Positions 52,201 through 63,299 of a stretch of 64,000 nt of DNA are shown piece after piece. A program made the translations under genes and the position numbers. The notes beneath the pieces are model-generated. The model was not told the origin of the DNA. It saw only the letters and a list, made by a program, of their open reading frames with translations, and did not search any database. Each line of letters begins with the position of its first letter. The stretch's first letter is position 1. This DNA comes from Planctomycetota bacterium (GTDB taxonomy: Bacteria > Planctomycetota > Planctomycetia > Planctomycetales > Planctomycetaceae), in the NCBI GenBank assembly GCA_046341255.1, contig JBKDRW010000597.1, positions 2,295-66,294 of the forward strand, in the 5' to 3' direction.

Positions 52201-52646
52201 CGCTGGCCGTGATTCTCGTAGTGCCGATGTGTCTGCTGTGTTCGATTGCCGGCGTGATCATGGCCGGCATGGATATCAACATCTTTACTCAGATCGGTTT
52301 TGTCGTTCTGGTTGGCCTGGCATGCAAGAACGCGATTCTGATCGTCGAGTACGCTCGATCAAGAAATCAGGAAGGCTTGTCGGTATACGATGCGACTCTG
52401 GACGCATGTCGGCTCAGACTGCGACCGATCATTATGACTTCGTTTGCCTTCATCTTCGGCGTTGTTCCGCTGGTCCTCGGCGAGGGTGCCGGCGCTGAGA
52501 TGCGACGTACCCTCGGCACGGCCGTTTTTGCAGGAATGCTGGGCGTCACGCTGTTCGGGATTCTGCTGACTCCCGTGTTCTTCTGTGTGATCCAGCGCCT
52601 CGCGAATTGGCGTTCCGGATCAGCCGAAACACCGGCTGCGCATTGA
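49257..52646 (+). CDS. RND efflux transporter permease (AcrB/HAE1-like) with an extra hydrophobic insertion
   Basis: MFSRFFIDRPIFATVMSVVITLAG is the canonical AcrB start, and the length and TM pattern fit. VDDAIVVVE is present. Start taken at ATG 49257. Confidence 0.9.
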   Translation: MFSRFFIDRPIFATVMSVVITLAGGIAVFTLPITQYPEIAPPTVEVSTQYPGANAKVVADTVAAPIEQQVNGVENMLYMSSQCTNDGTYTLTVTFGPGTDLNLAQVLVQNRVALAQPTLPDLVQRRGVTVKKKAPGVLMIVNLFSPDGSRDNLYLSNYATIQMRDELSRVDGVGDISFLGQRDYSMRVWLDPQQMAMRNISTQDVLRTIEQQNTQVAAGQIGQQPTTEGQVFQYTMTTLGRLTSEDQFGNMVLKTDSEGRMIRLRDVARIELGAMQYDQVCTLDTKPSIALSIYQLPGSNALQTAADVRAKMEELKIRFPEGVDYAIVYDTTPFIRESVSEVFVSLRDAVVLVAIVVLVFLQGWRPAIIPLVAVPVAIVGTFAAMVAFGFSLNALTLFGLVLAVGIVVDDAIVVVEAVEHNIEYGMSPRDAAIKAMDMVAGPVIAVGLVLSAVFVPCAFITGVVGQFFRQFAVTIAISTIISAFNSLTLSPALAVLLLRPRVQRADSGKPEISVIGARLFAFSSPVSEALPRPALAILGAWLGYAFLGRLLTQWSSRVDAMKVVPAIAWPWIAAAGCVIVVWFVSRWINRILSFGFRLFNRAFDAATNGYVRVVGWTLRASVVVLLIYGGMIYGTYHLFTITPTGFIPSQDKGYLILNVRLADSASLERTQQIVAEVEKLAGSVEGVHHTVALAGQSFLLNANAANFGSMYVMLDEFHERVETNRTADMIAEDLRALFAREIHDADINILGAPPIEGLGTAGGFKIVVQDRGENGLSVLESVAQSIVEDGVADPKLRDLFSGFRANTTWLQLDIDREAAKKLGLSMADVFAALQVNFGSLYVNDFNRFGRTWQVNVQADAKYRMQTVDLQRMYVPAGNRGSIPLAGFVTPRTVTGPLMIIRHNLYPSAFVNADAAVGASSGEAITALKDAADRNLAPSMRAEYTELAYLQQMAGNTAMYAFLLAVILVFLVLAAQYESWALPLAVILVVPMCLLCSIAGVIMAGMDINIFTQIGFVVLVGLACKNAILIVEYARSRNQEGLSVYDATLDACRLRLRPIIMTSFAFIFGVVPLVLGEGAGAEMRRTLGTAVFAGMLGVTLFGILLTPVFFCVIQRLANWRSGSAETPAAH

Positions 52647-52660
52647 ACGAATGAGACAGC

Positions 52661-52675
52661 CGCTCTGCGAGAGCG
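52661..52675 (+). terminator. weak candidate intrinsic terminator after the RND gene
   Basis: cgctct-gcg-agagcg (6-bp stem, 3-nt loop), 15 nt after the stop codon and followed by attcttcttt. The stem is short, so confidence is low. Confidence 0.25.
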
Positions 52676-52961
52676 ATTCTTCTTTAGGCGTCTGGTTCTG
52701 ATGTGTTTGGCGAGCCGCTTGTGTCGGTAAAGCATTTGAGGTGGATATTTGCCGGGTTGTTGACACAGGCCGTTCGCCGGAAGCTTCGTTTCATTCCGAG
52801 TGAGGCGTGTCTCAATCGTTCACGCGGCTTGCTGAGGTCGTCGCTCGAAATTCGACCATGAATTGGCGTTCATGGGGTGGGATGATACAACCCCTGCCGT
52901 CGAGTGTGTGTCTGACTGAGATTGATGAGTCTTGCTGGACATTGGCCGTCGGGGCGTCGGG

Positions 52962-53600
52962 ATGAAGTCATTTCTTGCGAGGCTGTTTGAGACCGGTGAG
53001 GTTCAGTTGCCGCGGGAGGTTGCGGATGACCGTGGCGACGGCGTCGCGCGGGTGTTGGAGGAATCGGAGCGAGTCTGGCGTCGCGGAGTTGCGGGTGAGC
53101 CGCCGCGATTTGATGTTGCGACGGCCACGGCAGCATCGCGAGTGCTGATTTCGATGTGCCAGGCCGTTGTTTATCGTGAAAACGAGATTGACGATCTGAA
53201 ACAGCGACTGGTCGAAAGCAGACTGCCCTGCGGTGACGTCGTGGTTCAGGATCCGTCGCTGCATTACAGCGTGGACCTGCTGTTTCGTTTCATCCCACAG
53301 GTGCTCGAACGGGCGAAACGGATTTCGCCGTCGGACGATCTGATTCCGCTGACGCTGAATGTGCTGAGACCCTGGCCGTTGTCGAGTATTGGCGTGAGTG
53401 AACTCAATCCGGCCGCGTTGTGTCCTTCGTTGCGGGTCATTCAGGCCGATCGATCGTTGTGGCGAATGTATGTCGATCGAGTCATCTCGCTCAATGATGC
53501 AGCGCGGCTGCAGCATCCGGAGACTCGTGCGGCTGTCGCTGCGGCGATCGGTCCGTTCGACAGTTTGGCTCCGGAGATGAGTCGGCGATTGAAGGTGTAG
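52962..53600 (+). CDS. hypothetical protein (gene 1 of the MoxR/vWA locus)
   Basis: 212 aa from ATG 52962, with protein-like composition. The opposite-strand ORF is Arg-rich and looks like an antisense artefact. No family recognised. Confidence 0.55.
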   Translation: MKSFLARLFETGEVQLPREVADDRGDGVARVLEESERVWRRGVAGEPPRFDVATATAASRVLISMCQAVVYRENEIDDLKQRLVESRLPCGDVVVQDPSLHYSVDLLFRFIPQVLERAKRISPSDDLIPLTLNVLRPWPLSSIGVSELNPAALCPSLRVIQADRSLWRMYVDRVISLNDAARLQHPETRAAVAAAIGPFDSLAPEMSRRLKV

Positions 53601-53829
53601 AGATGAAAATGGGTCTCACGAGTTCGCGAGAGCTCGGAAAGGCCCGTCTCGCGACGAAAAGACCATCAGGAGACTGACGTCTCCCGCTCGCTAAATGTGA
53701 CTCGGAGTTCGTACGAACTCTGCTACGGATGGCAGGGAGAGTGAACGATTGGGACAATCGTTCTACAATGGGCGTTTCGAAGTGGTGAATGAAACTAATG
53801 TCGCACGAGCGTCGGGGAGTTGTCGTCTG

Positions 53830-55038
53830 ATGAATGAGTCGCTGGACTTTGCCCTGAGGACTGCCGGACGTGTGCAGTCGGAACTGCTCGATGTGATGAA
53901 GCGAGAATACGTCGGCAAGGATGAAGTCATCGACCTGCTCGGTATCTGTCTGGTCGCCGGCGAGAACCTCTTTTTGCTCGGTCCGCCGGGAACTGCCAAG
54001 AGTGCGCTGGTCAGATCACTGGCCGCGAAACTGGATGGTCGAGTCTTTGACTATCTGCTGACACGATTTACCGAGCCGTCCGAATTGTTCGGGCCGTTTG
54101 ACATTCGCAAGCTGCGTGATGGGGATCTGCTGACGAACACGGAAGGCATGTTGCCCGAAGCGGATATTGTGTTTCTCGACGAACTGCTGAACGCCAACAG
54201 CGCGATTCTGAATAGTCTGCTGATGGCATTGAATGAACGCATCTTTCGTCGCGGCCGAGAGACTCGAAAGCTGGGTTTTGTGCTCACCGTCGGCGCGAGC
54301 AATCGGTTACCCGAAGATGACGCACTGGCGGCGTTGTTCGATCGTTTCCTGTTGCGAGTTCGATCGGACAACGTTCCGGCCGAGATGCTGACCAGCGTTC
54401 TCGAAGCGGGCTGGCAGCTTCAGAAGTCCGAAGCGTCACGCGGGTCTGCGGGAAATCGAATCGCGATCGAAGAACTACGAGCGATGCAGAGCTGCATCCC
54501 GCTGATTGATCTTGGTCAGACTCGAACCGTTTACGTGGGGTTGATCAATCGACTGCGACACGCAGGGCTGGAGATTTCCGATCGTCGAGCCGTTCGACTG
54601 CAGCGACTGGCCGCGGCCAGTGCCATGATGTGCGGTCGGTCGTCGGTGGATGTGTCGGACTTCTGGGTGATGCGATACATCTGGGACACGATGGAACAGG
54701 TCGAGGTGCTGGCGAAAATCGTCAACGACACGATTAAGTCCAGTCACGCCGGGTCTGCAACAAGGGTCGACGCAGACGACGAAAGCCCGGAGGCACAGGT
54801 CAGCGTTCATCCGCGTTCCGTCTCGATGGATGCGCCGAACCCGGCACATCTCAGTCGGGACCTCGATCAGATCGATGCGTTGCTGGCGAGCGCTGGGGAC
54901 GATGGACATCAGAAAAGCTGGCTGCGAGATCGACTGAGTCTGCTGTTGTCACGAGTCGAATGGGTTCAGCAGCCAGATGCTCGTGAGTTTCTCAGGGGGC
55001 GCATCCAGTCGTTGATGAGCATAGCGGCCACATCATGA
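53830..55038 (+). CDS. MoxR-family AAA+ ATPase, RavA-like
   Basis: Walker A is LLGPPGTAKS, Walker B is DIVFLDELLNAN, sensor-1 is VGASN, and ALFDRFLLRV is present. The N-terminal 200 aa align by eye with E. coli RavA (FDYLLTRFTEPSELFGP...AILNSLLMALNERIFRRG). GGGGAG lies 10 nt upstream of ATG 53830. Confidence 0.85.
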   Translation: MNESLDFALRTAGRVQSELLDVMKREYVGKDEVIDLLGICLVAGENLFLLGPPGTAKSALVRSLAAKLDGRVFDYLLTRFTEPSELFGPFDIRKLRDGDLLTNTEGMLPEADIVFLDELLNANSAILNSLLMALNERIFRRGRETRKLGFVLTVGASNRLPEDDALAALFDRFLLRVRSDNVPAEMLTSVLEAGWQLQKSEASRGSAGNRIAIEELRAMQSCIPLIDLGQTRTVYVGLINRLRHAGLEISDRRAVRLQRLAAASAMMCGRSSVDVSDFWVMRYIWDTMEQVEVLAKIVNDTIKSSHAGSATRVDADDESPEAQVSVHPRSVSMDAPNPAHLSRDLDQIDALLASAGDDGHQKSWLRDRLSLLLSRVEWVQQPDAREFLRGRIQSLMSIAATS

Positions 55039-55880
55039 ACGAAGGCAGCCTCTGGGCATTCTCAACTCACATCGCCAACATCCATCGGCTTGGTGAACTT
55101 CGCAGCATGCCGAGTGTTCAGGGTGCGCTGACAGAGGATGTCGTTTGGGTGCGAGGCAGCGGTTTGGATGAGACGTTGTTCGGAACGCTGGCAGCCTTTG
55201 CTGACGGTCCGGTGTTTTTGGTGGATGGAAAGAATCGATTGACACCGTTTGGCAAAACCGTGCCTGTCGATCGGTTGCCGGATGTGACGTGGGAGTCGCT
55301 GGCGAAACTGCTTGAGCCCGTTCTTCCGTTGGCTCGCATTGTCAGCGTTCAGTTCCCGAAATGTCCGTTGACACTGGTGCGATCGTCTGTTGATCACGAG
55401 GCGTCTGTGATGATTGTTTCATGGGATGCGTTCGAAAGATGGGCGATTGACGCACCGGAGATCCGACTGCGGGCCTGTCACTTTGCAACTCGCGGTGGCG
55501 ACGTTGGTGCGCAGGTGTGTGTTCGCGGTAATCCGCTTCCTTCGTTGCCGGGTGCTCGATTCTGGACTACTGGCAACATTGCGATTCCGCTGGGTCTGAC
55601 CTGGTCACCTGCTGTGGATGTCGACACGCTGCGCGAAGTGCTGGCGGTGCAGCATGACGATTCCATTTCGGCGAGCGGCCGGTATGAGTCGGAGTCGTTG
55701 TGGCAACGTGCAGTGAGCGATTGGGACAATCGCTCGACAATGGGGGGACTTTGGATTTGGCATGAAGATGGTCGGTTTGATGTGATCGAACCGAGTGCTT
55801 TCGTTCCAGCATTGCGAATGCATGTGCGAGCAACAGGTGATGTGCTGAAGTCGGGCATTGCGGCGGGAAGATCATCGTGA
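55035..55880 (+). CDS. hypothetical protein (gene 3 of the MoxR/vWA locus)
   Basis: 281-aa ORF whose ATG overlaps the MoxR stop (ATGA). No family recognised. It contains the second copy of the 33-nt hairpin motif (55712-55744). Confidence 0.65.
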   Translation: MNEGSLWAFSTHIANIHRLGELRSMPSVQGALTEDVVWVRGSGLDETLFGTLAAFADGPVFLVDGKNRLTPFGKTVPVDRLPDVTWESLAKLLEPVLPLARIVSVQFPKCPLTLVRSSVDHEASVMIVSWDAFERWAIDAPEIRLRACHFATRGGDVGAQVCVRGNPLPSLPGARFWTTGNIAIPLGLTWSPAVDVDTLREVLAVQHDDSISASGRYESESLWQRAVSDWDNRSTMGGLWIWHEDGRFDVIEPSAFVPALRMHVRATGDVLKSGIAAGRSS

Positions 55881-58780
55881 AAGTTGCCTTCCGGTATTTC
55901 GTGACCGACCTGCCCGCGTATTTTCAATGGGCCGATGGCGGTCGCGAGTTGACGTGGTGCAATGGCACGACGATCGCGTTCCGTCAGGAGATTGAATCGC
56001 TTCTGCTGAAATTGCAAGAGACACGTCGATACGCCGACTTTGCATCCGTCGCTCTGGCCTTCGCGGCGACACGAGGGTCGTGGCAGGAGATTTCGTCATA
56101 TCTGATTAATTCGGTGCGCATGCTGAGAGCCTGCACGCTTCCCAATGTCGCGAGCATGGTGAAGGAGCGTCGGGAGGTTCTGGATCGCTGGGAAGATTCT
56201 GTCCGCAGGTTGTCGTTGCTTCACAACTTCGCCAGCGATCGCCGCGTTCGTTTCGATCAAGTCGTTGAGTTGCTCGCGCTGGTGCTCGCGCATCGATTGA
56301 CGGGATATTCCGAAGCCGTGTGGGAGAACATCACGGAAACACTGGGTGCAGGACTTCCCGAGGACTGGGCTGAAAAGTCGAAGTGCGATGAGGAAACGCT
56401 TCCGTGGATGTTGCCATCAAATGCCGCAACGATAACGGACCCAATGATCATCCATCAGGTCGCTCTGAGAATCTTTCGGATCATTCGCATCGCCAAGACG
56501 CTCGCGAGTTCAATCCCCGGCAATACGGTTGATGAACTGCTGTCAGTCGTTCGAACGGGCATCGCAAACGCGGACTCTATTCAGCCAGCGCCCGAGTTGC
56601 TTCCGGAGCCGGAGCATCAACCGTCCGCGATGCGTGGCCTGCTGAAGGAGCTTGAAAACGATCGCAACCTGCGAGGACTGGCTCGATTGACCCAGCGGCT
56701 GATTGCGGCGATCTCACTTCCAAGAGACCTGTCGGAGCCGGACGACCTGCAGATGGGAGGCGTTTCGGACATCTCCAATCGGGGGCCGCTCGACAAGCTG
56801 CTGCTGAGCGAGCTGGCCCATGACGACCTGACGCTGTCGGTGCGACTGGCTCTGAACGAAGCGTTGTACCTTCGTCGTGAAGCTCCGCCGACGCTGCAAA
56901 AGCGAACAAGGTCTGTATTGATCGACAGCAGTCTGCCGATGTGGGGCATCCCGCGACTGTATGCAACCGCGGCGGCGCTGGCTCTGCATGTGACGACGGA
57001 TCGCCAGACGCGAGTGCAGTGCTTTCGGACTCAGCAGAGTCGACTGATCAATTGCTCCATGACAACGTCCGACTCAGTGGCCGAGCATCTGGAGGCGTTG
57101 AGCAGTCATGCGTCGCCGTCGAAGGTGCTGCCGGACTTTTTTGATCGCGTTGGTGATGACGAAGCGTGTGCCGAACCGGTGGTCATTACGACTCGAGATG
57201 TTCTGGAGATGCCCGAGTTTCGACAGCAACTGGATATCGCCTGGTTGAATGATGTCTGGCTGATTATCGCCGAACGAGATGGTCGAATGGAGATTCTCCA
57301 GAAGACTCGACAGGGCATTTCACGCCATCGCCGGATTGAATTGCCGTTGTCAGAGATTCTGTCTGAAGCGGAAGCGGAGACACTTCGCGATGACGATCGT
57401 GTCGATAATTTGCCCGCGATCTATCGTCGAAGTGAATTCCCATTGTTGCTGCCTCATGCCGTGCGAACTGGTCGAATCTGGCGATGGGAACAGCATTCGA
57501 TCGCCATCACGGACGATGGTCGTCTGATGTTGTGGTCACAGGAGAAAAAGGGAGCTCGTCAGCTTTCGAACAATCTGCCGACGACTTCTCGGCACAAGTG
57601 CTTCATGCTTCAGCGCAACCACCATGCGTTTTGTGTGCTGTGTACGGAAGACGCCAATATGTCGGGTTTTCTGATTCGTGTCAGTTACTCGGATCTCAAA
57701 GTGACTCTGCGTGTTGTTGAGCACCACGTCTCGATCGTGACGGACGTCACGCTGGCGGATTTTGCAGTTTTGGTGTTCGGAGCTAACGGCAGCGGTACGG
57801 ATCTTTGCTTCGAACTGGATCTCATCAACGGCAGCGTTTCTGGCCCGGTCGCCTTGCCGAAGGGCGTCACATGGCGACTTGGTCGCGTCGTGAAACTGGA
57901 CGGTGCGTTCTATGTGATGAATGTGGTCACTTCGGGAGCCAACGAGCACGCAGCCTTCGGCCATGCATCATCGTATGGGGCGATGTGCTCACTGCAAAAG
58001 CTACCCGATGCATTGCAGCAAGCGGATCAGGTTGTGGAGTATCTCTATGGGCATTACGCATTGATTCGCAAAGGAAAAGTCTGTGATGGCTCGACGGGCA
58101 AGCTTGTCGAGGCATTCCGGCATTTGCCTGAGATTGAACATATTTCGTCAGCCTCTGACACTGGCAGACTCGAAGCATTTGCCTCGATTTCGGGATCGCC
58201 GATGATTTTGGACCTTCAGCGAAGCGAGGTTGTCCGGTCTGAACAGCGCCAAACGTATAGCCTGGCGGACATGGAAATGGAGCTTGCCGTTGCGAACTAT
58301 GATATCAGGACCTCACACCATCGCTTTCGTCACGTCGGGACGGACGGGAAAACGATCGTTCTGAAGAACTCGAACGGGAAAAACTACGAGATCTTTCTGT
58401 TCGAAGCGGGGCGACAGCAAAGCATCCGGATGGTGTTGAAATCTCAGGGAAAGATTGGCTCGATTGTGCTGAAGGAATTCCGCGACGACCGCCATCAACT
58501 GCATTCGGGACACGAAATGCAGAAAGCACAATGGTCGTCCGGCGGTGCGATGTGGCTGGATTCGCGGGGCCTGCTGCATCTGAGATCTTCGGACTCATCG
58601 CGCGCGGAAGTCACGCTGGTTCTGCGAGACGGCTGGCTGGCCGGATGGACGTCGGACGGCACAGTCTTTGGCGACGATTACTACCACTCGATACATCCAG
58701 AAATCACGAGCTTGAAGCTGGCCAGCGCGCCGGAGATCTGGCGGTCGGTGATTGTTCCGTTGCTGGAGTCACTGACATGA
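55877..58780 (+). CDS. large protein with a helical N-terminal region, a probable vWA domain (degenerate MIDAS) and a beta-rich C-terminal half
   Basis: The GTG start overlaps the upstream stop (GTGA). The central beta-alpha-beta pattern is RSVLIDSSLPMWG (DSSLP at 56924-56938) ... RVQCF ... EPVVITTRDV, which resembles vWA strands b1/b2/b4. The last roughly 450 aa are beta-strand-rich with W/G-containing repeats. Confidence 0.7.
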   Translation: MKVAFRYFVTDLPAYFQWADGGRELTWCNGTTIAFRQEIESLLLKLQETRRYADFASVALAFAATRGSWQEISSYLINSVRMLRACTLPNVASMVKERREVLDRWEDSVRRLSLLHNFASDRRVRFDQVVELLALVLAHRLTGYSEAVWENITETLGAGLPEDWAEKSKCDEETLPWMLPSNAATITDPMIIHQVALRIFRIIRIAKTLASSIPGNTVDELLSVVRTGIANADSIQPAPELLPEPEHQPSAMRGLLKELENDRNLRGLARLTQRLIAAISLPRDLSEPDDLQMGGVSDISNRGPLDKLLLSELAHDDLTLSVRLALNEALYLRREAPPTLQKRTRSVLIDSSLPMWGIPRLYATAAALALHVTTDRQTRVQCFRTQQSRLINCSMTTSDSVAEHLEALSSHASPSKVLPDFFDRVGDDEACAEPVVITTRDVLEMPEFRQQLDIAWLNDVWLIIAERDGRMEILQKTRQGISRHRRIELPLSEILSEAEAETLRDDDRVDNLPAIYRRSEFPLLLPHAVRTGRIWRWEQHSIAITDDGRLMLWSQEKKGARQLSNNLPTTSRHKCFMLQRNHHAFCVLCTEDANMSGFLIRVSYSDLKVTLRVVEHHVSIVTDVTLADFAVLVFGANGSGTDLCFELDLINGSVSGPVALPKGVTWRLGRVVKLDGAFYVMNVVTSGANEHAAFGHASSYGAMCSLQKLPDALQQADQVVEYLYGHYALIRKGKVCDGSTGKLVEAFRHLPEIEHISSASDTGRLEAFASISGSPMILDLQRSEVVRSEQRQTYSLADMEMELAVANYDIRTSHHRFRHVGTDGKTIVLKNSNGKNYEIFLFEAGRQQSIRMVLKSQGKIGSIVLKEFRDDRHQLHSGHEMQKAQWSSGGAMWLDSRGLLHLRSSDSSRAEVTLVLRDGWLAGWTSDGTVFGDDYYHSIHPEITSLKLASAPEIWRSVIVPLLESLT

Positions 58781-61700
58781 AACTCCCGCTGACGTTGGTA
58801 TTCCGACAGAAAATGGGACAGGCACCTCGCAGCGAGCCTGATCCTTCGCGTTTTCGCAGGCGTTCGGAGCCAGTCCCTTTTCTTTACGGCACCGTTGAGT
58901 CCGACCCGGCGACGAATGATATTGCTGCGGTACTGCTCTTCGGGGCGACTCCGTCCGATTGGCTTGCGGTTCTGTGTGCGGCAGGCGTTCCGACACATCG
59001 GCTGACATTTCTTCCGCTTTCGCATCATGCGCAGACGAGTGTTTTCGGGGCACTCGTCGCGGGTGAAGCAATACGAGATCACGTCGGATCACTCAGAGAC
59101 TTAGCGACAGCGCGGCCGGATGTCTTTCGGTTGCCACCGCTGAGCTATCGATGTCTTGCCGGTCGGTTGTATGTGCCGCTCGAAGCGGAGTTGGCGCCTC
59201 AGGTGACGATTCCGGAACTGCAGTCGATGCTGCCCGCTGTTCAGGCACATCGGCTGGTATGGCATCCTTCGGCCGGGCTGATCGAATTCGACGCCGATCA
59301 GGTTCTGTCCACGGCTGATCTGTTGTCGGGGCCGCGACCGTCACCTCAACGATGGAATCTCAGCACGTTTGGCGATCAACTGAACGATCGGATTCGAAGT
59401 CTGAATCCTGTTGCGACTCTGGAAGAACTGGCGAGCATCATCCAGCAGGGGCGTGACGATATTGGTCAGGATGCCAATGACATTCGGAATGCACCGCGAG
59501 CACCGGATGAGATTCCGTTCACGAAGCTGAACGACGCGATGCAGTGGATGAAGAGACAAGCGGCGAAGACGGTGTTCAACATCACAAATAAGCTGCCGAC
59601 AAGCCCGACCGGGAGTCCGCTTCTTGGCAAGCTGCATCAATGGGCGGCCCAGATGCTCTCCGGCTCTGCAGGTGCTGCCGGAGCGGCTGCAGGTGCTGCG
59701 GCTGCGGCGGCAGCGATGAGCAGCGGCCTGTCGACGCAGCGAGAGAATGAACTCAAGCGATTGCTCCATATGCTGGAGCACGATCCCGATCGCGGACTGA
59801 AATACGCACTGCCGCTGTTTGGAAATTCTTCCCGCGGAGTCGCACCTCCGTCGGGTCGCCTGGGGGAACGAATTCCGGACTTTGATCTCAGTCAATTGGG
59901 TCGATCGGGCCGAGCCGACGCCTGGGATGTGCCGTGGCAGTATCACGCGAAGCTGACTCAGAAATATCGCGAGCTGGCTCAGCGAGAAACCCGGCTGGGC
60001 AATCATCGTCGAGCCGCATACATCTACGCATCGCTGCTGCACGATCTGAATTCGGCAGCCGCGGCTCTGGAGGCTGGAAAACTGTTTCGCGACGCGGCGG
60101 CGATTTATCAGGTTCATCTTCGATCACCGCTCAAAGCGGCAGCGTGCCTGAAGAGCGGCGGCATGTGGGAAGAAGCAGTTGTTCTCTATCGTGAGCACAA
60201 GCAGTGGATGACGGCTGGTGAATTGTACGGTCTGCTGAACCAGCCCGAGTCTGCCGCCGAGATGTATGAGCTGGAACTCAGCAATCGGCTGCAGCAAAGC
60301 AACTACTTCGAAGCGGCCACGCTGGCGATCGAATCGCTGCACGATCGAGAACGCGGCTGGAAGCTGCTCCGCGACGGCTGGGTTGCTCAGCGGCGAGGTG
60401 CGGATTGTCTGCGTCGACTGTTCCAGGGGTTCGCCGACGCTGGTCAGCATCAACGCACGGAAACGGTGTTCGAAGATGTGATGTCTCAATTGCTGGCAAA
60501 CCAGATGCCGGATGCAACCACGATCTGCAGTGAAGTCGCAACGACGTATCCGACCGCTGCTGTTCGAGACCTCGCACGGCGACGGACATGGCAGCTTGCT
60601 TCGTCGCTACTGTCCAGAGAATCCGAAGTGCATTCGAAAACCGCGCTGCAGGCGATTCAAAGTCTGGCCAAAGAAGATGAATTGCTGGTTCGTGACACAA
60701 GCCGATTTGCCACGCTGCAGAAGGCTCAGGCAAAGCAAAAGGCTGATGCACAGCCTGCGCGTCGTCCGTCGGGTCTGACGGTTGGAAACGCAGCGAAGGT
60801 TAAGGCCCTCCAGTCGTTCCCTCGAATCGTTCTGCAGGCGCGCAGTCAGCCGAAGCTTCTTCGCTGGACTTCAGCTGCGGCGACTTCCGGCTACTTGTTT
60901 TGCATTGGCGAGACTTCCGAACAGGACGTTGTGGTCGGCCGCTGGACACTCGCCTCGCTGGCTCCGTCTTCGATCCCCGATGGCGCGTGTGTGACGTTTC
61001 CATTGATGGTTCAGCCGACTGCTGAGCAGTCGGCCTGCCAGTTGCGAGTGAATCCGATTCGTCCCGATCGAATTGATCTGCAAAGGCTGCCTGAAGAGGG
61101 AACGTTGAGCCACAACTTCGTCACCAGCATTGTTCGCGCGAACTCGTTTGTTGATTCGGTGAACGTCGCGGGCTTTTGGATTTTGGATGTTCAGTTCATA
61201 TCCTCTGGTCATTGGTATGCGATGATTCTGGAAAATGACGCTCAGCCAAAGCTTGTTCTCTCCGGCAGCGCCGGAGTTCCAACGTGTTCGTTTCCTTTGA
61301 CTTTGCCTGAGTCGGCCAGACAGAACATGATCAACTCCGCGACGCGTGTGTATCTCGGCGATTCACATGTGCTGGTTGTCGCGGGGTGTTCGGTTTATCG
61401 AGCGACGTTGCCGGCAGAGAAGCAATTCCACGTAAGCCCTGCGAACCCGCTGGAATTGGAATGCGTGCTGGAGATGGATTCCGACTGGACCGGATTCATT
61501 CCTTCTCAGCCACACTCGGTTCCTCGAGTGCTCATTGCGACGAAGACTTCATGCTATGCCGTTTGGGTGACGACAGGAGATTCGTGCCGAATCGCGTCGG
61601 ATCTGCAAGCCCCGGTGATCGGCTGCACTCGGCAGGGAACATTCATTGTCGCGACACCGACCGAGATTTCATGTTATCACGTTCATCAGAAGAAGACCGA

Positions 61701-61827
61701 ACGCATCGCCACGATCGAATCCCAGACCAGCGAGATCGTTTCCATCGTCCCCGATTCCTCCCCCGGCGACTTCCTCGCCATCCGCTCCGATGGCATCCTG
61801 CAACGCTTCAGGATTCCGGTGCAGTAA
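58777..61827 (+). CDS. large protein: N-terminal unknown domain, poly-Ala linker, TPR-like helical repeats, beta-rich (propeller-like) C-terminus
   Basis: ATG 58777 overlaps the upstream stop (ATGA), with GGAG 8 nt upstream. The poly-Ala/Gly tract is at about 59661-59722. Helical repeats run AAYIYASLLHDLNSAAAALEAGKLFRDAAAIYQ...WEEAVVLYREHKQWMTAGELY...AAEMYE. The C-terminal roughly 400 aa are beta-rich. Confidence 0.7.
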   Translation: MKLPLTLVFRQKMGQAPRSEPDPSRFRRRSEPVPFLYGTVESDPATNDIAAVLLFGATPSDWLAVLCAAGVPTHRLTFLPLSHHAQTSVFGALVAGEAIRDHVGSLRDLATARPDVFRLPPLSYRCLAGRLYVPLEAELAPQVTIPELQSMLPAVQAHRLVWHPSAGLIEFDADQVLSTADLLSGPRPSPQRWNLSTFGDQLNDRIRSLNPVATLEELASIIQQGRDDIGQDANDIRNAPRAPDEIPFTKLNDAMQWMKRQAAKTVFNITNKLPTSPTGSPLLGKLHQWAAQMLSGSAGAAGAAAGAAAAAAAMSSGLSTQRENELKRLLHMLEHDPDRGLKYALPLFGNSSRGVAPPSGRLGERIPDFDLSQLGRSGRADAWDVPWQYHAKLTQKYRELAQRETRLGNHRRAAYIYASLLHDLNSAAAALEAGKLFRDAAAIYQVHLRSPLKAAACLKSGGMWEEAVVLYREHKQWMTAGELYGLLNQPESAAEMYELELSNRLQQSNYFEAATLAIESLHDRERGWKLLRDGWVAQRRGADCLRRLFQGFADAGQHQRTETVFEDVMSQLLANQMPDATTICSEVATTYPTAAVRDLARRRTWQLASSLLSRESEVHSKTALQAIQSLAKEDELLVRDTSRFATLQKAQAKQKADAQPARRPSGLTVGNAAKVKALQSFPRIVLQARSQPKLLRWTSAAATSGYLFCIGETSEQDVVVGRWTLASLAPSSIPDGACVTFPLMVQPTAEQSACQLRVNPIRPDRIDLQRLPEEGTLSHNFVTSIVRANSFVDSVNVAGFWILDVQFISSGHWYAMILENDAQPKLVLSGSAGVPTCSFPLTLPESARQNMINSATRVYLGDSHVLVVAGCSVYRATLPAEKQFHVSPANPLELECVLEMDSDWTGFIPSQPHSVPRVLIATKTSCYAVWVTTGDSCRIASDLQAPVIGCTRQGTFIVATPTEISCYHVHQKKTERIATIESQTSEIVSIVPDSSPGDFLAIRSDGILQRFRIPVQ

Positions 61828-61989
61828 GCACCCTCAAGCTTTGGATGCAGCAACTGAGACTGGTAAGCAGGGAGATCTTGCCGGATCGTGATGTTTTCCC
61901 AGGGCCTTAGTTGACCGATGTTTCGGGTAATTCGGGCAGCAAAATGCGTTTTGATTGGCTTCCCAATGCCAGGATGTGACCTGCCCCGG

Positions 61990-62017
61990 TTGCGAGTAGA
62001 GAAGCCGGGTCTATAAT
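61990..62017 (+). promoter_or_regulatory. candidate sigma70-type promoter upstream of nuoI
   Basis: TTGCGA (61990-61995), a 16-nt spacer, then consensus TATAAT (62012-62017). An 8-bp hairpin follows (ccctgcgc-ggaatttt-gcgcaggg, 62031-62054) before ATG 62091. Confidence 0.4.
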
Positions 62018-62090
62018 TCTGCGGTCTTTACCCTGCGCGGAATTTTGCGCAGGGAAGTTCAAGGCAAGGCCGCATCCGGGGTTTGTTCCC

Positions 62091-62642
62091 ATGCTTACGT
62101 GGTTTCGCAACGTCTGGTTGTCTGTCGTCACGGTCCTGCAGGGCATGTATGTGACGCTCCGCACGATGTTCAAGACGTATGGTCGCCGCACGTTCACTGA
62201 AGTTTACGAGTATCCGGAAGTTCCGGTGAAGGTGAAGGCGCGTTACCGCGGATTTCATCGATTTGATTTGACGACATGTATCGGCTGTGAAAAATGCGCG
62301 GCCGCCTGTCCGGTGGACTGCATTTACATTGATAAGGAAAAGAGCCCTGTCGGCAAGGGTTTTCGGATCAATGGTTTTACGATTGATTACACGAAGTGCA
62401 TGTTTTGCGCGTTGTGTGTTGAGCCCTGTCCGGTGGACTGTATCTTCATGGGTTCAAATTACGACCTGAGTTGCTACAGTCGAGACGGATGTATTGTGGA
62501 CTATGCCAAACTGCCGCTGGAGATTGCCTGGGGTAAGGCAACTTTAAATCCGACGGTCGTGGCGGAGTCCAAGGTTCTGCATCAGCCGGTTTGGGTCAAG
62601 GGTGAGCCGAGCCCGTTCCAGTTTGCTGGTTCGGAGCACTGA
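62091..62642 (+). CDS. nuoI: NADH-quinone oxidoreductase subunit I-like 2x[4Fe-4S] ferredoxin
   Basis: YPE.P......RG.H, followed by [16 protein letters not shown] and [16 protein letters not shown] at NuoI spacing. Confidence 0.8.
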
Positions 62643-62750
62643 GTCGGGCTTGCGGAGTTAATAAGCTGCTGGGTTTCCGGGATCTGCTGCATTGGCGGCG
62701 GAAAGTTCTGTGTTCTGCTGCGAGCATTATGGCTCTGCGAAAGAAGGAAC

Positions 62751-63227
62751 ATGGTTGCTGAGGAAACGGTGCTGACGATTGACGAAGTCAATCAGCGTCT
62801 TCCGCTTGTGAAGGCGATTGTGAAAGATATTGTCGGGCTGCATTCCGATCTTGAGCTGCGGAAGCAGCGGCTGGGTTCTCTGCGCGAGCGTCACCCGGCA
62901 TCGAAGAATGCAGATTCCGTTTACGAGCAGGAAGTTCGGCAGATGGAAGAGGAGCTGTCTGCAGATGAGTCTCGTCTGCAACACTTCTCTGAAGAGTTGC
63001 TGCAGATTGGCGGGATTCTTCGGGATGCTCGCGCGGGTCGGGTGGATTTTCCCGGTGAGCTGTCTGGTGAGAGAGTGAGTTTTTGCTGGCAGGTTGGTGA
63101 AGAGGAATTGCAGTACTGGCATGCGGGTGATTGTGGTGAATCCAGCCGGGTTTCGCTGTTTCATGAGATGGGCAGTGGCGAGTCGGGTTTGTCACAGGAG
63201 GCTGGGCACGAGTCGCTCGGCGAATGA
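62751..63227 (+). CDS. DUF2203 domain protein
   Basis: LTIDEVNQRLPLVKAIVKDI at the N-terminus and GRVDFPGEL.GERVSFCWQVGEEELQYWH near the C-terminus match my recollection of DUF2203. Confidence 0.55.
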   Translation: MVAEETVLTIDEVNQRLPLVKAIVKDIVGLHSDLELRKQRLGSLRERHPASKNADSVYEQEVRQMEEELSADESRLQHFSEELLQIGGILRDARAGRVDFPGELSGERVSFCWQVGEEELQYWHAGDCGESSRVSLFHEMGSGESGLSQEAGHESLGE

Positions 63228-63299
63228 CGTGTCTGCTGATGTTGGTGAGTATTGAGTCCTGACTTGAGTCAGGATCAGTGCTGAAAAGGGATTCGTTCG

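What the first reader, a model, noticed from the sequence alone, without database searches (positions are those of the whole stretch)
52962..61827. Five-gene RavA/MoxR AAA+ / vWA / giant beta-rich protein locus with no recognisable effector (candidate NTP-dependent conflict or signalling system)
**Seen in the sequence.** Five same-strand ORFs occupy this locus. The last four are translationally coupled by 4-nt overlaps: ATGA at 55035-55038, GTGA at 55877-55880 and ATGA at 58777-58780. An SD-like purine run precedes the MoxR gene (53830) and gene 5 (58777), and a weaker one precedes gene 4 (55877).
- Gene 2 has Walker A (GPPGTAKS), Walker B (IVFLDE), sensor-1 and the DRF arginine region. It tracks E. 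coli RavA by eye.
- Gene 4 (967 aa) has a central vWA-like beta-alpha pattern whose MIDAS DxSxS is degenerate (DSSLP), followed by about 450 aa of beta-rich sequence.
- Gene 5 (1016 aa) has an unknown N-domain, a poly-Ala linker, TPR-like helices and a beta-rich C-terminus.
- Genes 1 and 3 (212 and 281 aa) match nothing I recognise.

**Established knowledge.** MoxR ATPases work with vWA partners, for example RavA-ViaA. Comparative genomics (Kaur, Burroughs, Iyer and Aravind, 2020) predicted multi-gene MoxR-vWA 'ternary' systems, including a beta-propeller type, as biological-conflict systems. To my knowledge that class has no experimental characterisation.

**Inference.** This locus belongs to that class or a relative. 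I can see no nuclease, protease, TIR, pore or other output domain, so its effector logic is unknown. It is flanked by unrelated genes (an RND pump and nuo genes), as an accessory island would be.
Basis: partly seen in the sequence, partly recalled or inferred. Interest (0 to 1): 0.8.

Follow-up and report, generated by a model that had tools for sequence, protein, structure and literature searches.

The report
MoxR–vWA–β-propeller five-gene conflict-type operon
This is a complete five-gene copy of a bacterial system already predicted by comparative genomics (a RavA-like ATPase, a degenerate vWA adaptor and two large propeller-bearing scaffold proteins); it has no recognisable killing or signalling enzyme and nobody has tested this subtype experimentally, so it is a good specimen of a known open problem, not a new kind of system.

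Summary
Five same-strand genes sit at 52962-61827, with ATGA/GTGA/ATGA overlaps joining the last four.

**Membership.** All five proteins pass the Pfam cut-offs of families built only for the "MoxR-vWA-beta-propeller ternary system" (Kaur et al. 2020, subsystem 4): bpX4, bpMoxR, bpX2, bpX0+bpX1 and bpX3.

**Folds.**
- AlphaFold models show gene 4 as helical N-domain / vWA-like α/β domain / about 8 β-blades.
- Gene 5 is an α/β head / TPR / roughly 7-bladed WD40 propeller.
- The vWA link to ViaA is weak but above controls, and the MIDAS motif is degenerate.

**Distribution.** The order g1-g5 recurs in 48 of 80 related loci, mostly Planctomycetota. Most of the rest are cut by contig ends. No sixth gene is conserved and PADLOC finds nothing.

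**New here.**
- The cluster occurs in unrelated genomic contexts at 82-85% nucleotide identity.
- Against one sister genome its dS is 4-6 times lower than that of its flanks.
- Propeller blades are recurrent divergence hot-spots.
- The most conserved segment of gene 4 is poorly modelled.
- bpX2 appears homologous to bpX3.

**Verdict.** New member of a known, predicted, untested kind. The mechanism is inferred: an ATP-gated cytoplasmic sensor/capture complex.

The parts
52661..52675 (+). Terminator-like hairpin plus T-run just after the upstream RND pump gene. It marks the likely 5' boundary of the transcription unit.
   Evidence: Homology with the sister genome L085 breaks in 52613-52849.
52962..53600 (+). 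g1: bpX4 protein (212 aa), stand-alone, no known fold or function. Conserved polar residues include R72, D105, S141 and D172.
   Evidence: Pfam PF19920 E 1.8e-42. 1031 clusters at 50% identity, and the 150 best listed are 131-297 aa, mostly about 200-235 aa, with no large fusion. Alignment A5. No PDB hit.
53601..53829 (+). 229-nt g1-g2 spacer with small hairpins. It is lineage-specific: in most related loci the g1 and g2 reading frames abut or overlap.
   Evidence: No Rfam match.
53830..55038 (+). g2: bpMoxR, a RavA-subfamily AAA+ ATPase (402 aa). It has the AAA+ core plus lid and a family-specific C-terminal ~95 aa in place of RavA's triple-helix and LARA domains.
   Evidence: Pfam PF20030 1.7e-95, AAA_5, AAA_lid_8. 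39% identity to RavA residues 31-318. PDB 6q7l E 2.6e-41. NCBIfam RavA equivalog 168 bits against a cut-off of 681, so it is not RavA itself.
53980..54003 (+). Walker A, GPPGTAKS (the GxxxTAKS variant noted for this class).
   Evidence: G51, P53, G54, A56 and K57 are invariant in 54 sequences including RavA.
54166..54183 (+). Walker B, IVFLDE.
   Evidence: F115, L116, D117 and E118 are invariant, as are sensor-1 N158, R172, R176 and R252/R253.
55035..55880 (+). g3: bpX2 protein (281 aa). Its C-terminal half (about residues 120-203) appears homologous to the bpX3 head of g5. The invariant residues are W, P, G, A and R; none is D, E, H, S or C.
   Evidence: Pfam PF19918 2.2e-42. A6. hhalign against g5 N-domain P 2.9e-4, score 32.1 against shuffled 14.3±3.0, max 25.5.
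55877..58780 (+). g4: the vWA component (967 aa), built as helical N-domain (bpX0) / conserved motif / degenerate vWA / about 8 β-blades (including bpX1) / C-terminal helix.
   Evidence: Pfam bpX0 4.7e-6 and bpX1 1.2e-14. AlphaFold mean pLDDT 88.3. 661 homologs.
56720..56896 (+). g4 residues 282-340 (PRDLSEPDDLQMGGVSDISNRGPLDKLLLSELAHDDLTLSVRLALNEALYLRREAPP). This is the most conserved segment of the protein, yet part of it is modelled with low confidence. Candidate docking or engagement motif.
   Evidence: Entropy 0.89 bits against 2.0-2.7 elsewhere. Invariant P282, G294, G295, D298, G303, L308, E312, R323, A329 and E335. pLDDT below 50 at 288-304. dN = 0 against L085.
56897..57352 (+). g4 residues 341-492: vWA-like α/β domain with a degenerate MIDAS. 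DSSLP replaces DxSxS (family consensus DxGLR), and the 'GGTD' Thr loop is replaced by HPGxA.
   Evidence: Secondary-structure order β-α-β-β-α-α-β-α-α-β-β-β. hhalign against a ViaA vWA profile is in register, P 4.2e-4, score 29.7 against shuffled 14.4±2.4. Foldseek BFVD rank 2 is a phage VWFA protein, E 6e-6. HMMER against Pfam and PDB is negative.
57467..58711 (+). g4 residues 531-945: 32 β-strands, about eight 4-stranded blades, forming one or more β-propeller modules.
   Evidence: Foldseek PDB top hits are BamB, DDB1, Dark and TolB at E about 1e-6, but TM ≤0.31, so the blade arrangement is unresolved.
58124..58276 (+). g4 residues ~750-800: hypervariable blade patch. It lies inside the recurrent divergence hot-spot at residues ~721-880. 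Relatives carry an inserted ribosomal L7/L12 C-terminal domain between residues ~855 and ~871.
   Evidence: 40-60% aa identity here against ≥90% around it versus the sister genome. 74% nt identity at 58021-58320. The same region is lowest in most of the close pairs covered. L12 insertion.
58777..61827 (+). g5: the 'third component' (1016 aa), built as bpX3 α/β head / long linker / TPR solenoid / roughly 7-bladed WD40-like propeller.
   Evidence: Pfam PF19919 6.7e-26. AlphaFold mean pLDDT 83. Foldseek hits to Sif2, eIF3i, Gβ and RACK1 at E about 1e-7 to 1e-8, TM 0.5-0.63.
58906..59331 (+). g5 residues 44-185: bpX3 α/β head domain, the putative output or interaction module.
59659..59727 (+). g5 residues 295-317: Ala/Gly-rich linker (SGSAGAAGAAAGAAAAAAAMSSG). 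It is not conserved in the family and is not a convincing transmembrane helix.
59737..59931 (+). g5 residues 321-385: conserved motif block leading into the first TPRs.
   Evidence: Entropy 1.53 bits. dN/dS 0.04.
59932..60756 (+). g5 residues 386-660: TPR/α-solenoid.
   Evidence: Helix pairs at 387-658. Profile hits to the TPR regions of WDR19/IFT144 and Elp1, E 7e-6.
60847..61824 (+). g5 residues 691-1016: WD40-like β-propeller, the most variable part of g5.
   Evidence: Entropy 2.78 bits. Recurrent low-identity bins at residues 641-800.
61990..62017 (+). σ70-like promoter match (10 of 12) ahead of the downstream nuoI-like gene. It marks the start of the next, unrelated unit.
   Evidence: Downstream genes are Fer4/NuoI, DUF2203 and NuoA, by 87-99% identity to annotated L085 genes.

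Best explanation
The locus is a complete, probably single-operon copy of the 'MoxR-vWA-β-propeller ternary system' (subsystem 4 of Kaur, Burroughs, Iyer and Aravind 2020) in a member of the Planctomycetaceae.

**Shown.**
- There are five conserved partners: bpX4; a catalytically intact RavA-like AAA+ ATPase; bpX2; a vWA component (helical N-domain, degenerate-MIDAS vWA, about 8 β-blades); and a third component (bpX3 head, TPR, WD40 propeller).
- None has a convincing signal peptide or transmembrane helix.
- There is no recognisable enzyme other than the ATPase.
- The cluster recurs as a self-contained unit in changing genomic contexts.
- Its propeller blades are the fastest-diverging parts.

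**Inferred mechanism.**
1. The two large scaffold proteins use their variable propeller and TPR surfaces to bind a cytoplasmic ligand, most plausibly a protein or peptide of an invading element.
2. The vWA domain and the invariant, poorly structured segment just before it (g4 282-340) couple that scaffold to the hexameric MoxR ring.
3. ATP hydrolysis by the ring remodels or licenses the assembly, acting as a threshold switch.
4. The output is non-enzymatic. It could be sequestration or physical trapping of the target, or exposure of the bpX3 head (with its stand-alone paralogue bpX2), not a nuclease, protease or NADase.
For: **Membership.**
- All five proteins pass the Pfam cut-offs of system-specific families.
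- The architecture matches the published description.
- The GPPGTAKS P-loop is present.

**Active ATPase.** Walker A and B, sensor-1, Arg-finger-region and sensor-2 residues are invariant across 54 sequences including RavA. g2 is 39% identical to RavA.

**Folds.**
- g4 model mean pLDDT 88 and g5 model mean pLDDT 83.
- Propeller hits at E 1e-6 to 1e-8.
- vWA homology P 4e-4, z about 6 over shuffles, in MIDAS register. A phage VWFA structural hit supports it.

**Functional unit.**
- The order g1-g2-g3-g4-g5 on one strand is exact in 48 of 80 loci; most others are cut by contig ends.
- Genes overlap by 4 nt.
- No flanking family is shared by more than 5 loci.

**Accessory, conflict-like dynamics.**
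- The same cluster at 82-85% nt identity sits in unrelated flanks (L036/L075 and L018/L023).
- Cluster dS is 0.14-0.20 against 0.65-1.22 in flanks. dN/dS is 0.12-0.36 against 0.007-0.08, versus GCA_036704275.1.
- Divergence hot-spots recur in g4 blades (residues 721-880) and the g5 propeller (residues 641-800) across most of the close pairs covered.
- A ribosomal L12-CTD module is inserted at the same g4 site in relatives.

**No effector.** PADLOC, Pfam, NCBIfam and PDB profile searches found none.

**Cytoplasmic.** No hydrophobic 19-mer lies outside buried β-strands.

**Precedent.** A sensor protein with a β-propeller, encoded in a cluster that also has MoxR and vWA genes, was shown genetically to be needed for the response to a biotic threat in the Esr pathway.
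Against: - No experiment exists for this subtype.
- No hit in PADLOC and no relatives on IMG/VR viral contigs.
- I did not test enrichment in defence islands. Here the neighbours are housekeeping genes (RND pump, nuo).
- The vWA assignment is statistically modest (hhalign probability 34%). The MIDAS is degenerate, so the classical metal-mediated ligand grip probably does not operate.
- Elevated dN/dS at low divergence can partly reflect unpurged mutations.
- The low-dS result rests on one genome pair. A second pair (L046/L066) shows the opposite, with the cluster more diverged than its flanks.
- Inter-domain geometry is uncertain (pTM 0.44-0.55), and no complex was modelled.
- A few loci have g4-g5 without an adjacent ATPase (L010, L013, L014).
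- Kaur et al. report a membrane-spanning segment in the third component. I do not find one here.
Confidence: 0.6

Rival explanations
1. Housekeeping chaperone. Like E. coli RavA-ViaA (which acts on respiratory complexes), CbbQO or NorQD, the ATPase-vWA pair would mature or regulate a specific cellular complex. Here that might be Complex I, since nuo genes lie immediately downstream.
For: g2 is a RavA-subfamily ATPase. g4's α/β domain aligns with ViaA's vWA. nuoI, nuoA, nuoC and nuoD homologues start about 260 nt downstream in the window and in L085. From my own knowledge, RavA-ViaA has been reported to interact with Nuo and fumarate reductase.
Against: - nuo adjacency is seen only in the window and its 91%-identical sister, and in none of 80 other loci.
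- In L085 three unrelated minus-strand genes separate g5 from nuoI.
- A terminator-like site and a promoter-like site bracket the cluster.
- The cluster sits in unrelated contexts at 82-85% identity.
- dN/dS is 3-50 times that of the flanking housekeeping genes.
- The MIDAS, which CbbO-type adaptors use to grip their client, is degenerate.
- g2 lacks RavA's LARA domain and scores far below the RavA equivalog cut-off.
Confidence: 0.12
2. Cellular signalling or scaffolding machine unrelated to conflict. It could be a PVC-type cytoplasmic organiser: the TPR + WD40 architecture is reminiscent of IFT, coatomer and Elongator scaffolds. It might sense an endogenous or environmental cue and act through protein-protein interactions.
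For: The g5 TPR profile matches the TPR regions of WDR19/IFT144, IFT122 and Elp1 (E 7e-6 to 3e-3). The WD40 propeller is confirmed. There is no toxic effector domain. The family is large and old within Planctomycetota.
Against: - The domain order (solenoid then propeller) is the reverse of protocoatomer-type proteins.
- TPR matches cover only about 90 residues and can reflect generic repeat similarity.
- Relatives also occur in MAGs labelled Verrucomicrobiota, Acidobacteria, Cloacimonadota and Wallbacteria, and per Kaur et al. in Bacteroidetes and Proteobacteria.
- Changing genomic contexts and blade hot-spots fit an accessory function better than a core cell-biological one.
Confidence: 0.15
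3. The system does have an enzymatic effector that sequence methods miss. One of bpX4, bpX2 or bpX3 would be a cryptic hydrolase or transferase released or activated by the MoxR-vWA switch.
For: bpX4 has invariant or near-invariant polar residues (R72, S103, D105, D125, S141, S142, D172, R173). [quoted passage not shown]
Against: - bpX2's invariant residues are W, P, G, A and R only.
- bpX3's are P and A plus one near-invariant His.
- There are no Pfam, NCBIfam, PADLOC or PDB matches even at permissive E-values.
Confidence: 0.13

Closest known systems
MoxR-vWA-β-propeller ternary systems (vWA-MoxR subsystem 4; Kaur, Burroughs, Iyer and Aravind, eLife 2020, PMC7159879; Pfam bpMoxR, bpX0-bpX4)
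   Same: Everything that defines it:
- the system-specific Pfam families on all five proteins
- a vWA followed by a β-propeller, with the N-helical (bpX0) and C-terminal β (bpX1) extensions
- a third component with a globular N-domain, TPR and β-propeller
- the GxxxTAKS P-loop
- a degenerate vWA aspartate/MIDAS pattern
- lack of a conventional effector
- occurrence in planctomycetes
   Different: - No convincing membrane-spanning segment in the third component, only a lineage-specific Ala/Gly-rich linker.
- AlphaFold predicts about 8 blades after the vWA, not 'about four blades plus a β domain'.
- No L12/ClpS insertion in this copy, although ~40%-identical relatives recovered here have it.
E. 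coli RavA-ViaA
   Same: - The ATPase AAA+ module is 39% identical to RavA, with all catalytic motifs.
- The partner has a ViaA-like vWA core aligned in register.
- The ATPase and vWA genes lie in one operon.
   Different: - RavA's triple-helix and LARA domains are absent.
- It scores 168 bits against the 681-bit equivalog cut-off.
- ViaA has an intact MIDAS (DTSGS ... GGTD); g4 does not.
- ViaA has no propeller.
- There are three extra conserved partners (bpX4, bpX2, and the TPR-WD40 protein).
- RavA-ViaA is a two-gene system implicated in respiratory-complex and lysine-decarboxylase biology.
FtsH-type and VMAP/iSTAND MoxR-vWA ternary systems (same 2020 paper)
   Same: A MoxR-vWA pair proposed as an NTP-dependent threshold switch, plus a third sensor/organiser component. 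The FtsH type shares the GxxxTAKS P-loop and divergent vWA.
   Different: Those systems carry recognisable effectors or processing enzymes (peptidases, TIR, nucleases, cNMP cyclases, FtsH). None is present here. No VMAP, iSTAND or FtsH component.
Esr epibiont-sensing pathway of Schaalia odontolytica (bioRxiv 10.64898/2026.09.08.750141)
   Same: It combines MoxR, vWA and a sequence-variable WD40 β-propeller protein. There is genetic evidence that the propeller protein (EsrA1) is needed for the cell's response to a biotic threat.
   Different: - The Esr propeller is on a secreted, Ig-repeat filament anchored at the cell surface.
- Its output runs through Ser/Thr kinase, phosphatase and FHA proteins to transcription and Esx secretion.
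- It also has a transglutaminase.
- None of these parts is present here, and here everything is predicted cytoplasmic.
STAND/Apaf-1-type sensors (Avs, NLR, Dark apoptosome)
   Same: An NTPase is coupled to TPR or WD40 repeat sensor arms. Foldseek lists Dark among the top matches of g4 (E 1.2e-6).
   Different: Here the NTPase is a separate MoxR AAA+ protein, not a fused STAND module. The TM-score to Dark is only 0.12-0.14, so the match reflects propeller content. There is no CARD, Death or nuclease effector.

Membership tests
MoxR-vWA-β-propeller ternary system (Kaur et al. 2020, subsystem 4) | MoxR-family AAA+ ATPase of the bpMoxR type with the GxxxTAKS P-loop | tested here: met
   PF20030 E 1.7e-95 against cut-off 27. 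GPPGTAKS at residues 51-58. Catalytic residues are invariant.
MoxR-vWA-β-propeller ternary system (Kaur et al. 2020, subsystem 4) | vWA domain in the second component (often lacking the MIDAS aspartates) | tested here: met
   HMMER is negative. hhalign against a ViaA vWA profile gives P 4.2e-4 and score 29.7, against shuffled 14.4±2.4 (0 of 60 reach it), in MIDAS register. A phage VWFA protein ranks 2 in BFVD Foldseek. The α/β topology fits. Support is moderate, not strong.
MoxR-vWA-β-propeller ternary system (Kaur et al. 2020, subsystem 4) | [quoted passage not shown] | tested here: met
   32 strands at 534-932 with pLDDT mostly above 90. Top Foldseek hits are propellers (BamB, DDB1, TolB) at E about 1e-6. 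Blade number and closure are unresolved (TM ≤0.31).
MoxR-vWA-β-propeller ternary system (Kaur et al. 2020, subsystem 4) | N-terminal α-helical domain (bpX0) and C-terminal β domain (bpX1) on the vWA component (about 62% of members) | tested here: met
   bpX0 27.4 bits against cut-off 27 (borderline). bpX1 54.3 bits. Helices at 36-335.
MoxR-vWA-β-propeller ternary system (Kaur et al. 2020, subsystem 4) | Third component with an N-terminal globular domain, TPRs and a C-terminal β-propeller | tested here: met
   bpX3 E 6.7e-26. TPR helices at 387-658 and a propeller at 696-1012. WD40 hits with TM 0.5-0.63.
MoxR-vWA-β-propeller ternary system (Kaur et al. 2020, subsystem 4) | [quoted passage not shown] | tested here: not met
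   No 19-residue window above Kyte-Doolittle 1.9 outside a buried β-strand. Only 2 of 60 homologues have a marginal Ala/Gly stretch. The paper describes this as typical, not as a defining feature.
MoxR-vWA-β-propeller ternary system (Kaur et al. 2020, subsystem 4) | Conserved linkage of the components, with extra linked genes of unknown fold (bpX2, bpX4) | tested here: met
   The order g1-g5 is exact in 48 of 80 loci. Most others are truncated by contig ends. bpX4 and bpX2 Pfam hits.
MoxR-vWA-β-propeller ternary system (Kaur et al. 2020, subsystem 4) | No conventional effector module | tested here: met
   Pfam, NCBIfam, PADLOC and PDB profiles find none. No conserved sixth gene.
RavA-ViaA (E. 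coli type) | RavA equivalog score and a LARA domain | tested here: not met
   NF010054 168.6 bits against cut-off 681, with only residues 21-302 matched. Similarity ends at RavA residue ~318.
RavA-ViaA (E. coli type) | vWA partner with an intact MIDAS (DxSxS ... T ... D) | tested here: not met
   g4 has DSSLP, the family consensus is DxGLR, and the Thr loop is replaced.
Experimentally validated anti-phage defence systems (PADLOC-DB v2) | Match to any catalogued defence protein model | tested here: not met
   There are no hits for g1, g3, g4 or g5. g2 gives only chance-level hits (E 0.0025-0.019).
Any conflict/defence system | Protective phenotype against an invader | not testable with these tools
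   This needs genetics. Only indirect evolutionary signals were obtained.

The most novel reading that the evidence does not exclude
This would be an immune-type system with no enzymatic effector. Hot-spot blades of two propeller scaffolds would act as exchangeable recognition cassettes. In sister clades these are supplemented by a decoy ribosomal L12 domain at the same site. A RavA-like ring would use ATP to lock the captured invader protein into an inert assembly, or to expose the bpX3/bpX2 heads. The whole five-gene unit would be swapped between related genomes by recombination. That would be a defence logic of 'capture and remodel' instead of 'cleave or deplete'.
Probability: 0.3. Interest if true: 0.75.

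Novelty: new member of a known kind. Interest (0 to 1): 0.35.

Why it matters
The β-propeller ternary systems are the one branch of the MoxR-vWA conflict systems with no proposed effector, and I found no experimental data on them. This locus is a compact, intact, five-gene example with an apparently active ATPase and high-confidence structural models for both large proteins. It is therefore a reasonable starting point for genetics or reconstitution.

The analysis gives concrete, testable handles:
- an invariant, poorly structured segment of gene 4 (residues 282-340) as the candidate ATPase-docking element
- defined hypervariable blade patches as candidate recognition sites
- a probable bpX2/bpX3 paralogy
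- evidence that the cluster moves or recombines as a unit

It does not change what kinds of system are known.

Tried and rejected
- **HMMER searches of the vWA-like region.** Thirty-three family members against Pfam, and a profile against PDB, found nothing meaningful (top: D-amino-acid aminotransferase, E 0.004). The vWA link needed profile-profile comparison.
- **hhalign against single sequences.** YehP and ViaA were uninformative (probability below 1%).
- **Whole-chain Foldseek.** Propeller hits dominated, so the helical, vWA and bpX3 domains could not be searched separately. The structure-prediction cap (2) prevented modelling of g1, g3 or isolated domains.
- **PDB profile searches.** bpX4 and bpX2 gave no hits.
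- **Full-library phmmer with g1.** This was meant to find informative fusions. All 150 best hits are small proteins of 131-297 aa.
- **IMG/VR scan.** No viral relatives.
- **Terminal repeats at cluster boundaries.** None was consistent in six loci, so there is no evidence that the cluster is a self-mobile element.
- **Conserved sixth gene.** None. The largest flanking family covers 5 of ~80 loci and belongs to abundant planctomycete paralogue families.
- **Rfam and tRNA scans of the window.** Nothing.
- **nuo link.** Considered because of RavA-ViaA biology and rejected, because the adjacency is not conserved.
- **Internal paralogy.** bpX4 against g4 or g5, and bpX2 against g4, gave nothing.

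Full report
**1. The observation**

- g1 52962-53600, 212 aa
- g2 53830-55038, 402 aa
- g3 55035-55880, 281 aa
- g4 55877-58780, 967 aa
- g5 58777-61827, 1016 aa

The last four are joined by 4-nt overlaps: ATGA, GTGA, ATGA. Purine-rich SD-like runs precede g1, g2, g4 and g5.

The cluster is bracketed. A terminator-like hairpin with a T-run follows the upstream RND pump gene (52661-52675). A σ70-like promoter match (61990-62017) precedes the downstream nuoI-like gene. GC content (0.54-0.60) does not differ from the flanks. The window holds no tRNA and no Rfam match.

**2. Identity**

All five proteins pass the curated Pfam cut-offs of families created for one system, the 'MoxR-vWA-beta-propeller ternary system'.

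| Gene | Pfam family | E-value |
|---|---|---|
| g1 | bpX4 | 1.8e-42 |
| g2 | bpMoxR (plus AAA_5, AAA_lid_8) | 1.7e-95 |
| g3 | bpX2 | 2.2e-42 |
| g4 | bpX0 (27.4 bits, cut-off 27; borderline) | 4.7e-6 |
| g4 | bpX1 | 1.2e-14 |
| g5 | bpX3 | 6.7e-26 |

The source paper (Kaur et al. 2020, PMC7159879, section 'subsystem 4') describes the same anatomy:
- a vWA component that always carries a β-propeller
- a third component with a variable N-terminal region, TPRs and a β-propeller
- a GxxxTAKS P-loop
- divergent vWA domains lacking MIDAS aspartates
- extra linked genes of unknown fold
- no conventional effector
- occurrence in planctomycetes, verrucomicrobia, bacteroidetes and proteobacteria

PADLOC has no model for any of the proteins. 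NCBIfam recognises only a partial RavA-like match for g2, 168 bits against a cut-off of 681.

**3. The ATPase**

g2 is 39% identical to E. coli RavA across the AAA+ core and lid, RavA residues 31-318. Its best solved relative is RavA (6q7l, E 2.6e-41). It lacks RavA's C-terminal triple-helix and LARA domains.

I aligned 52 family members taken from related loci together with the window copy and RavA. The following are invariant: Walker A (G51, P53, G54, A56, K57), Walker B (F115, L116, D117, E118), sensor-1 N158, R172, R176 and R252/R253. The enzyme should therefore be active.

**4. The two large proteins**

*g4.* AlphaFold2 with a 100-sequence alignment gave mean pLDDT 88.3. The model shows:
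- three short strands plus a helical region to residue ~335
- an α/β domain at 343-490, with order β-α-β-β-α-α-β-α-α-β-β-β
- 32 β-strands at 534-932, about eight four-stranded blades
- a terminal helix

Foldseek against the PDB returns propellers (BamB, DDB1, Dark, TolB) at E about 1e-6, but with TM ≤0.31. β-propeller content is therefore secure; blade number and closure are not.

*g5.* Mean pLDDT is 83.0. The model shows:
- an α/β head at 44-185
- a long, partly disordered linker, including a lineage-specific Ala/Gly run at 295-317
- TPR helices at 387-658
- a propeller at 696-1012 that superposes on 7-bladed WD40 proteins (Sif2, eIF3i, Gβ, RACK1) at E 1e-7 to 1e-8 and TM 0.5-0.63

*Localisation.* No protein has a convincing transmembrane helix or signal peptide. 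The system is predicted to be cytoplasmic. This differs from the 'membrane-spanning segment' that Kaur et al. describe for the third component.

**5. Is the g4 α/β domain a vWA?**

HMMER-level searches say nothing. I built a ViaA vWA profile. Profile-profile comparison then aligns g4 341-420 with ViaA's β1 through the MIDAS Thr loop, in register. In this alignment g4 D350 sits on the first MIDAS Asp of ViaA's DTSGS.

| Comparison | hhalign score |
|---|---|
| g4 338-492 against ViaA vWA profile (P 4.2e-4, probability 34%) | 29.7 |
| 60 block-shuffled controls | 14.4 ± 2.4 (max 22.4) |
| Reversed alignment | 13.3 |

In the viral structure library, the second-best match of the g4 model is a phage 'VWFA domain-containing protein' (E 6e-6, the second-highest identity in the list at 15%).

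I take the vWA assignment as moderately supported. The MIDAS itself is degenerate: DSSLP here, DxGLR in the family, and the Thr loop replaced. An invariant W356-G357-x-P359 follows.

**6. Conservation pattern**

The most conserved stretch of g4 is residues 282-340, just before the vWA. Its entropy is 0.89 bits against 2.0-2.7 elsewhere, with ten invariant residues. dN against the sister genome is 0. Yet residues 288-304 are modelled with pLDDT below 50. In g5 the most conserved part is 321-450.

Segments that are invariant but not self-folding are typical of partner-binding elements. I infer, but have not shown, that they couple the scaffolds to the ATPase or to each other.

The propellers are the most variable parts, with entropy 2.6-2.8 bits.

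**7. Linkage across genomes**

A pattern scan of one genome per GTDB species found 402 matching stretches that encode g4 relatives. The best 80 loci were fetched. They are mostly Planctomycetota (Planctomycetaceae, Pirellulales, Thermoguttaceae, Phycisphaerae). A few carry Verrucomicrobiota, Acidobacteria, Cloacimonadota and Wallbacteria labels.

Iterated HMM searches of all ORFs in these loci show the following:
- The same-strand order g1-g2-g3-g4-g5 is exact in 48 loci.
- Most of the rest are truncated by contig ends or split by frameshifts.
- The exceptions are L010, L013 and L014 (g4-g5 only) and L012 (g4-g5-g2-g3).

No flanking gene family is shared by more than 5 loci, so there is no hidden sixth component. 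g1's family has 1031 clusters at 50% identity, and the 150 best listed are all small proteins of 131-297 aa. No relative is on IMG/VR viral contigs.

**8. Evolutionary behaviour (new here)**

*(a) Low synonymous divergence against the flanks.* A sister genome (GCA_036704275.1, locus L085) has the same RND-cluster-nuo context, with three extra genes inserted after g5.

| Region | Nucleotide identity | dS | dN/dS |
|---|---|---|---|
| Flanks | ~85% | 0.65-1.22 | 0.007-0.08 |
| Cluster | 92-96% | 0.14-0.20 | 0.12-0.36 |

Homology breaks at both cluster borders. The simplest reading is that the whole cluster was exchanged between the lineages after they diverged.

*(b) Unrelated contexts.* L036 against L075 is 85% identical over exactly the cluster. 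L018 against L023 is 82-86% identical. Their alignable DNA starts just upstream of g1. For L036/L075 it also ends just after g5, and the flanks of both pairs are unrelated. There are no consistent terminal repeats.

*(c) Local divergence patches.* Inside the otherwise near-identical window/L085 pair there are sharp patches:
- 58021-58320 at 74% nucleotide identity
- g4 residues ~750-800 at 40-60% amino-acid identity

Across nine close locus pairs, wherever the region is covered, the least conserved bins mostly fall in g4 residues 721-880 and g5 residues 641-800.

*(d) L12 insertion.* In ~40%-identical relatives, a ribosomal L7/L12 C-terminal domain is inserted in g4 between residues ~855 and ~871, within that hot-spot.

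*Caveats.* Point (a) rests on one pair. The Schlesneria pair L046/L066 shows the opposite, with the cluster at 77% and the flanks at 83-86%. High dN/dS at low divergence is partly expected.

**9. An internal relationship**

The C-terminal half of g3 (bpX2, about residues 120-203) aligns with the bpX3 head of g5 (residues 47-152). The hhalign result is P 2.9e-4 and score 32.1. Shuffled controls give 14.3 ± 3.0 (max 25.5), and the reversed alignment gives 11.0. Motifs are shared, for example AIPLGLTWSPAVDVDTLREVL against YVPLEAELAPQVTIPELQSML.

bpX2 may therefore be a free-standing paralogue of the third component's head. This hints at homotypic pairing or mimicry. Neither domain has conserved catalytic-type residues.

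**10. Mechanism**

Shown:
- an intact MoxR ATPase
- a degenerate-MIDAS vWA adaptor fused to a propeller
- a TPR-WD40 scaffold
- two small partners
- strict operonic linkage
- cytoplasmic prediction
- no enzyme other than the ATPase
- variable blades
- invariant unstructured linkers

Inferred: the propeller and TPR surfaces bind a cytoplasmic ligand. The vWA and the 282-340 segment tie the scaffold to the MoxR ring. ATP hydrolysis sets a threshold or remodels the assembly. The output is non-enzymatic (sequestration, or exposure of bpX3/bpX2).

This follows the 'thresholding chaperone' logic proposed by Kaur et al.. It also fits the genetic evidence from the Esr pathway that a β-propeller protein, encoded in a cluster with MoxR and vWA genes, is needed for the response to a biotic threat. 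Esr is built differently, however: its propeller is extracellular and its output is a kinase/FHA relay.

**11. Rivals**

- *RavA-ViaA-like respiratory chaperone.* This is attractive because nuo genes lie next door. However, that adjacency exists only in this genus, and the cluster's evolutionary behaviour is unlike its housekeeping neighbours.
- *Non-conflict scaffolding or signalling role.* It cannot be excluded. The g5 TPRs resemble IFT144 and Elp1 TPRs at E 7e-6, but the match is short and the domain order is reversed relative to coat-like proteins.
- *Cryptic enzyme in bpX4, bpX2 or bpX3.* This remains possible because I could not model those proteins.

**12. Literature and verdict**

Searches for the Pfam names, for MoxR-vWA ternary systems and for MoxR/vWA with phage-defence terms found only three kinds of paper:
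- the two Aravind-group comparative papers
- a DGR paper on VMAP-type systems
- the Esr preprint

None tests subsystem 4.

The locus is a new member of a known, computationally predicted, experimentally untested kind. The interest is moderate (0.35), because the class, its families and its presence in planctomycetes are already published.

Noticed in passing
window 52850-61960 versus L085 6996-15990; flanks window 47221-52612 and 61958-64000: Against the sister genome GCA_036704275.1, the five-gene cluster is 92-96% identical at the nucleotide level (dS 0.14-0.20). The syntenic flanks are ~85% identical (dS 0.65-1.22). Homology breaks lie at both cluster borders. This looks like recent replacement of the whole cluster by recombination.
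   Followed up: partly
L036:7365-15545 versus L075:7367-15557; L018:6591-16437 versus L023:7399-16441: The cluster is 82-86% identical at the nucleotide level in pairs of genomes whose flanks share no collinear homology. No terminal direct or inverted repeats were found. How the cluster relocates is unexplained.
   Followed up: partly
P0014, P0017, P0018, P0022, P0024 (for example P0017 residues 920-984); corresponds to window g4 residues ~855-871 (about 58440-58490): Relatives ~40% identical to g4 carry an inserted ribosomal protein L7/L12 C-terminal domain (PF00542, E down to 3e-22) just before bpX1. The site lies inside the blade region that diverges fastest between close relatives. Kaur et al. 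reported such insertions for bacteroidetes.
   Followed up: partly
window 55392-55643 (g3 residues ~120-203) and 58915-59232 (g5 residues 47-152): bpX2's C-terminal half and the bpX3 head of g5 appear to be homologous domains. hhalign gives P 2.9e-4 and score 32.1, against shuffled 14.3±3.0.
   Followed up: yes
window about 59900-60300 (first TPRs of g5): The g5 family profile matches the TPR regions of eukaryotic WDR19/IFT144, IFT122 and Elongator Elp1 (E 7e-6 to 3e-3). These proteins also combine WD40 propellers with α-solenoids. This may be generic TPR similarity. The domain order in g5 is reversed.
   Followed up: no
window 62091-63848 and L085:18781-22429: The downstream respiratory genes come in an unusual order. 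A NuoI-like ferredoxin gene is first, then a DUF2203 gene, then nuoA, nuoC and nuoD.
   Followed up: no
L085:16026-18211: The sister genome has three minus-strand genes inserted between g5 and nuoI that are absent from the window: DUF6940, an unknown gene, and an N_methyl/SBP_bac_10 (DUF1559-type) gene. A DDE transposase lies 7 kb upstream of the cluster.
   Followed up: no
L046:2298-5675, L066:1730-5032; window 49191-52646: An RND (AcrB-type) pump gene 54% identical to the window's also lies upstream of the cluster in two Schlesneria MAGs. Their g4 is only ~27-32% identical to the window's. The reason for this partial context conservation is unknown.
   Followed up: no
L010, L013, L014, L012: A minority of loci have g4-g5 without adjacent g1-g3. 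L010 has a full 10 kb upstream flank. L012 has the order g4-g5-g2-g3 without g1. The ATPase may therefore act in trans, or these copies may be decaying.
   Followed up: no
L016 (labelled Chitinophaga sp.), L010/L022/L023 (labelled Candidatus Kuenenia): These MAG labels sit oddly with g4 identities of 40-49% to a Planctomycetaceae query, higher than for many Planctomycetaceae loci. This could reflect binning errors or lateral transfer.
   Followed up: no
window 53601-53829: A 229-nt spacer between g1 and g2 contains short hairpins, for example GAGTTCGTACGAACTC. The sister genome has a spacer of the same size (231 nt between g1 and g2 in L085). In most other loci the g1 and g2 frames abut or overlap. 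It has no Rfam match.
   Followed up: partly
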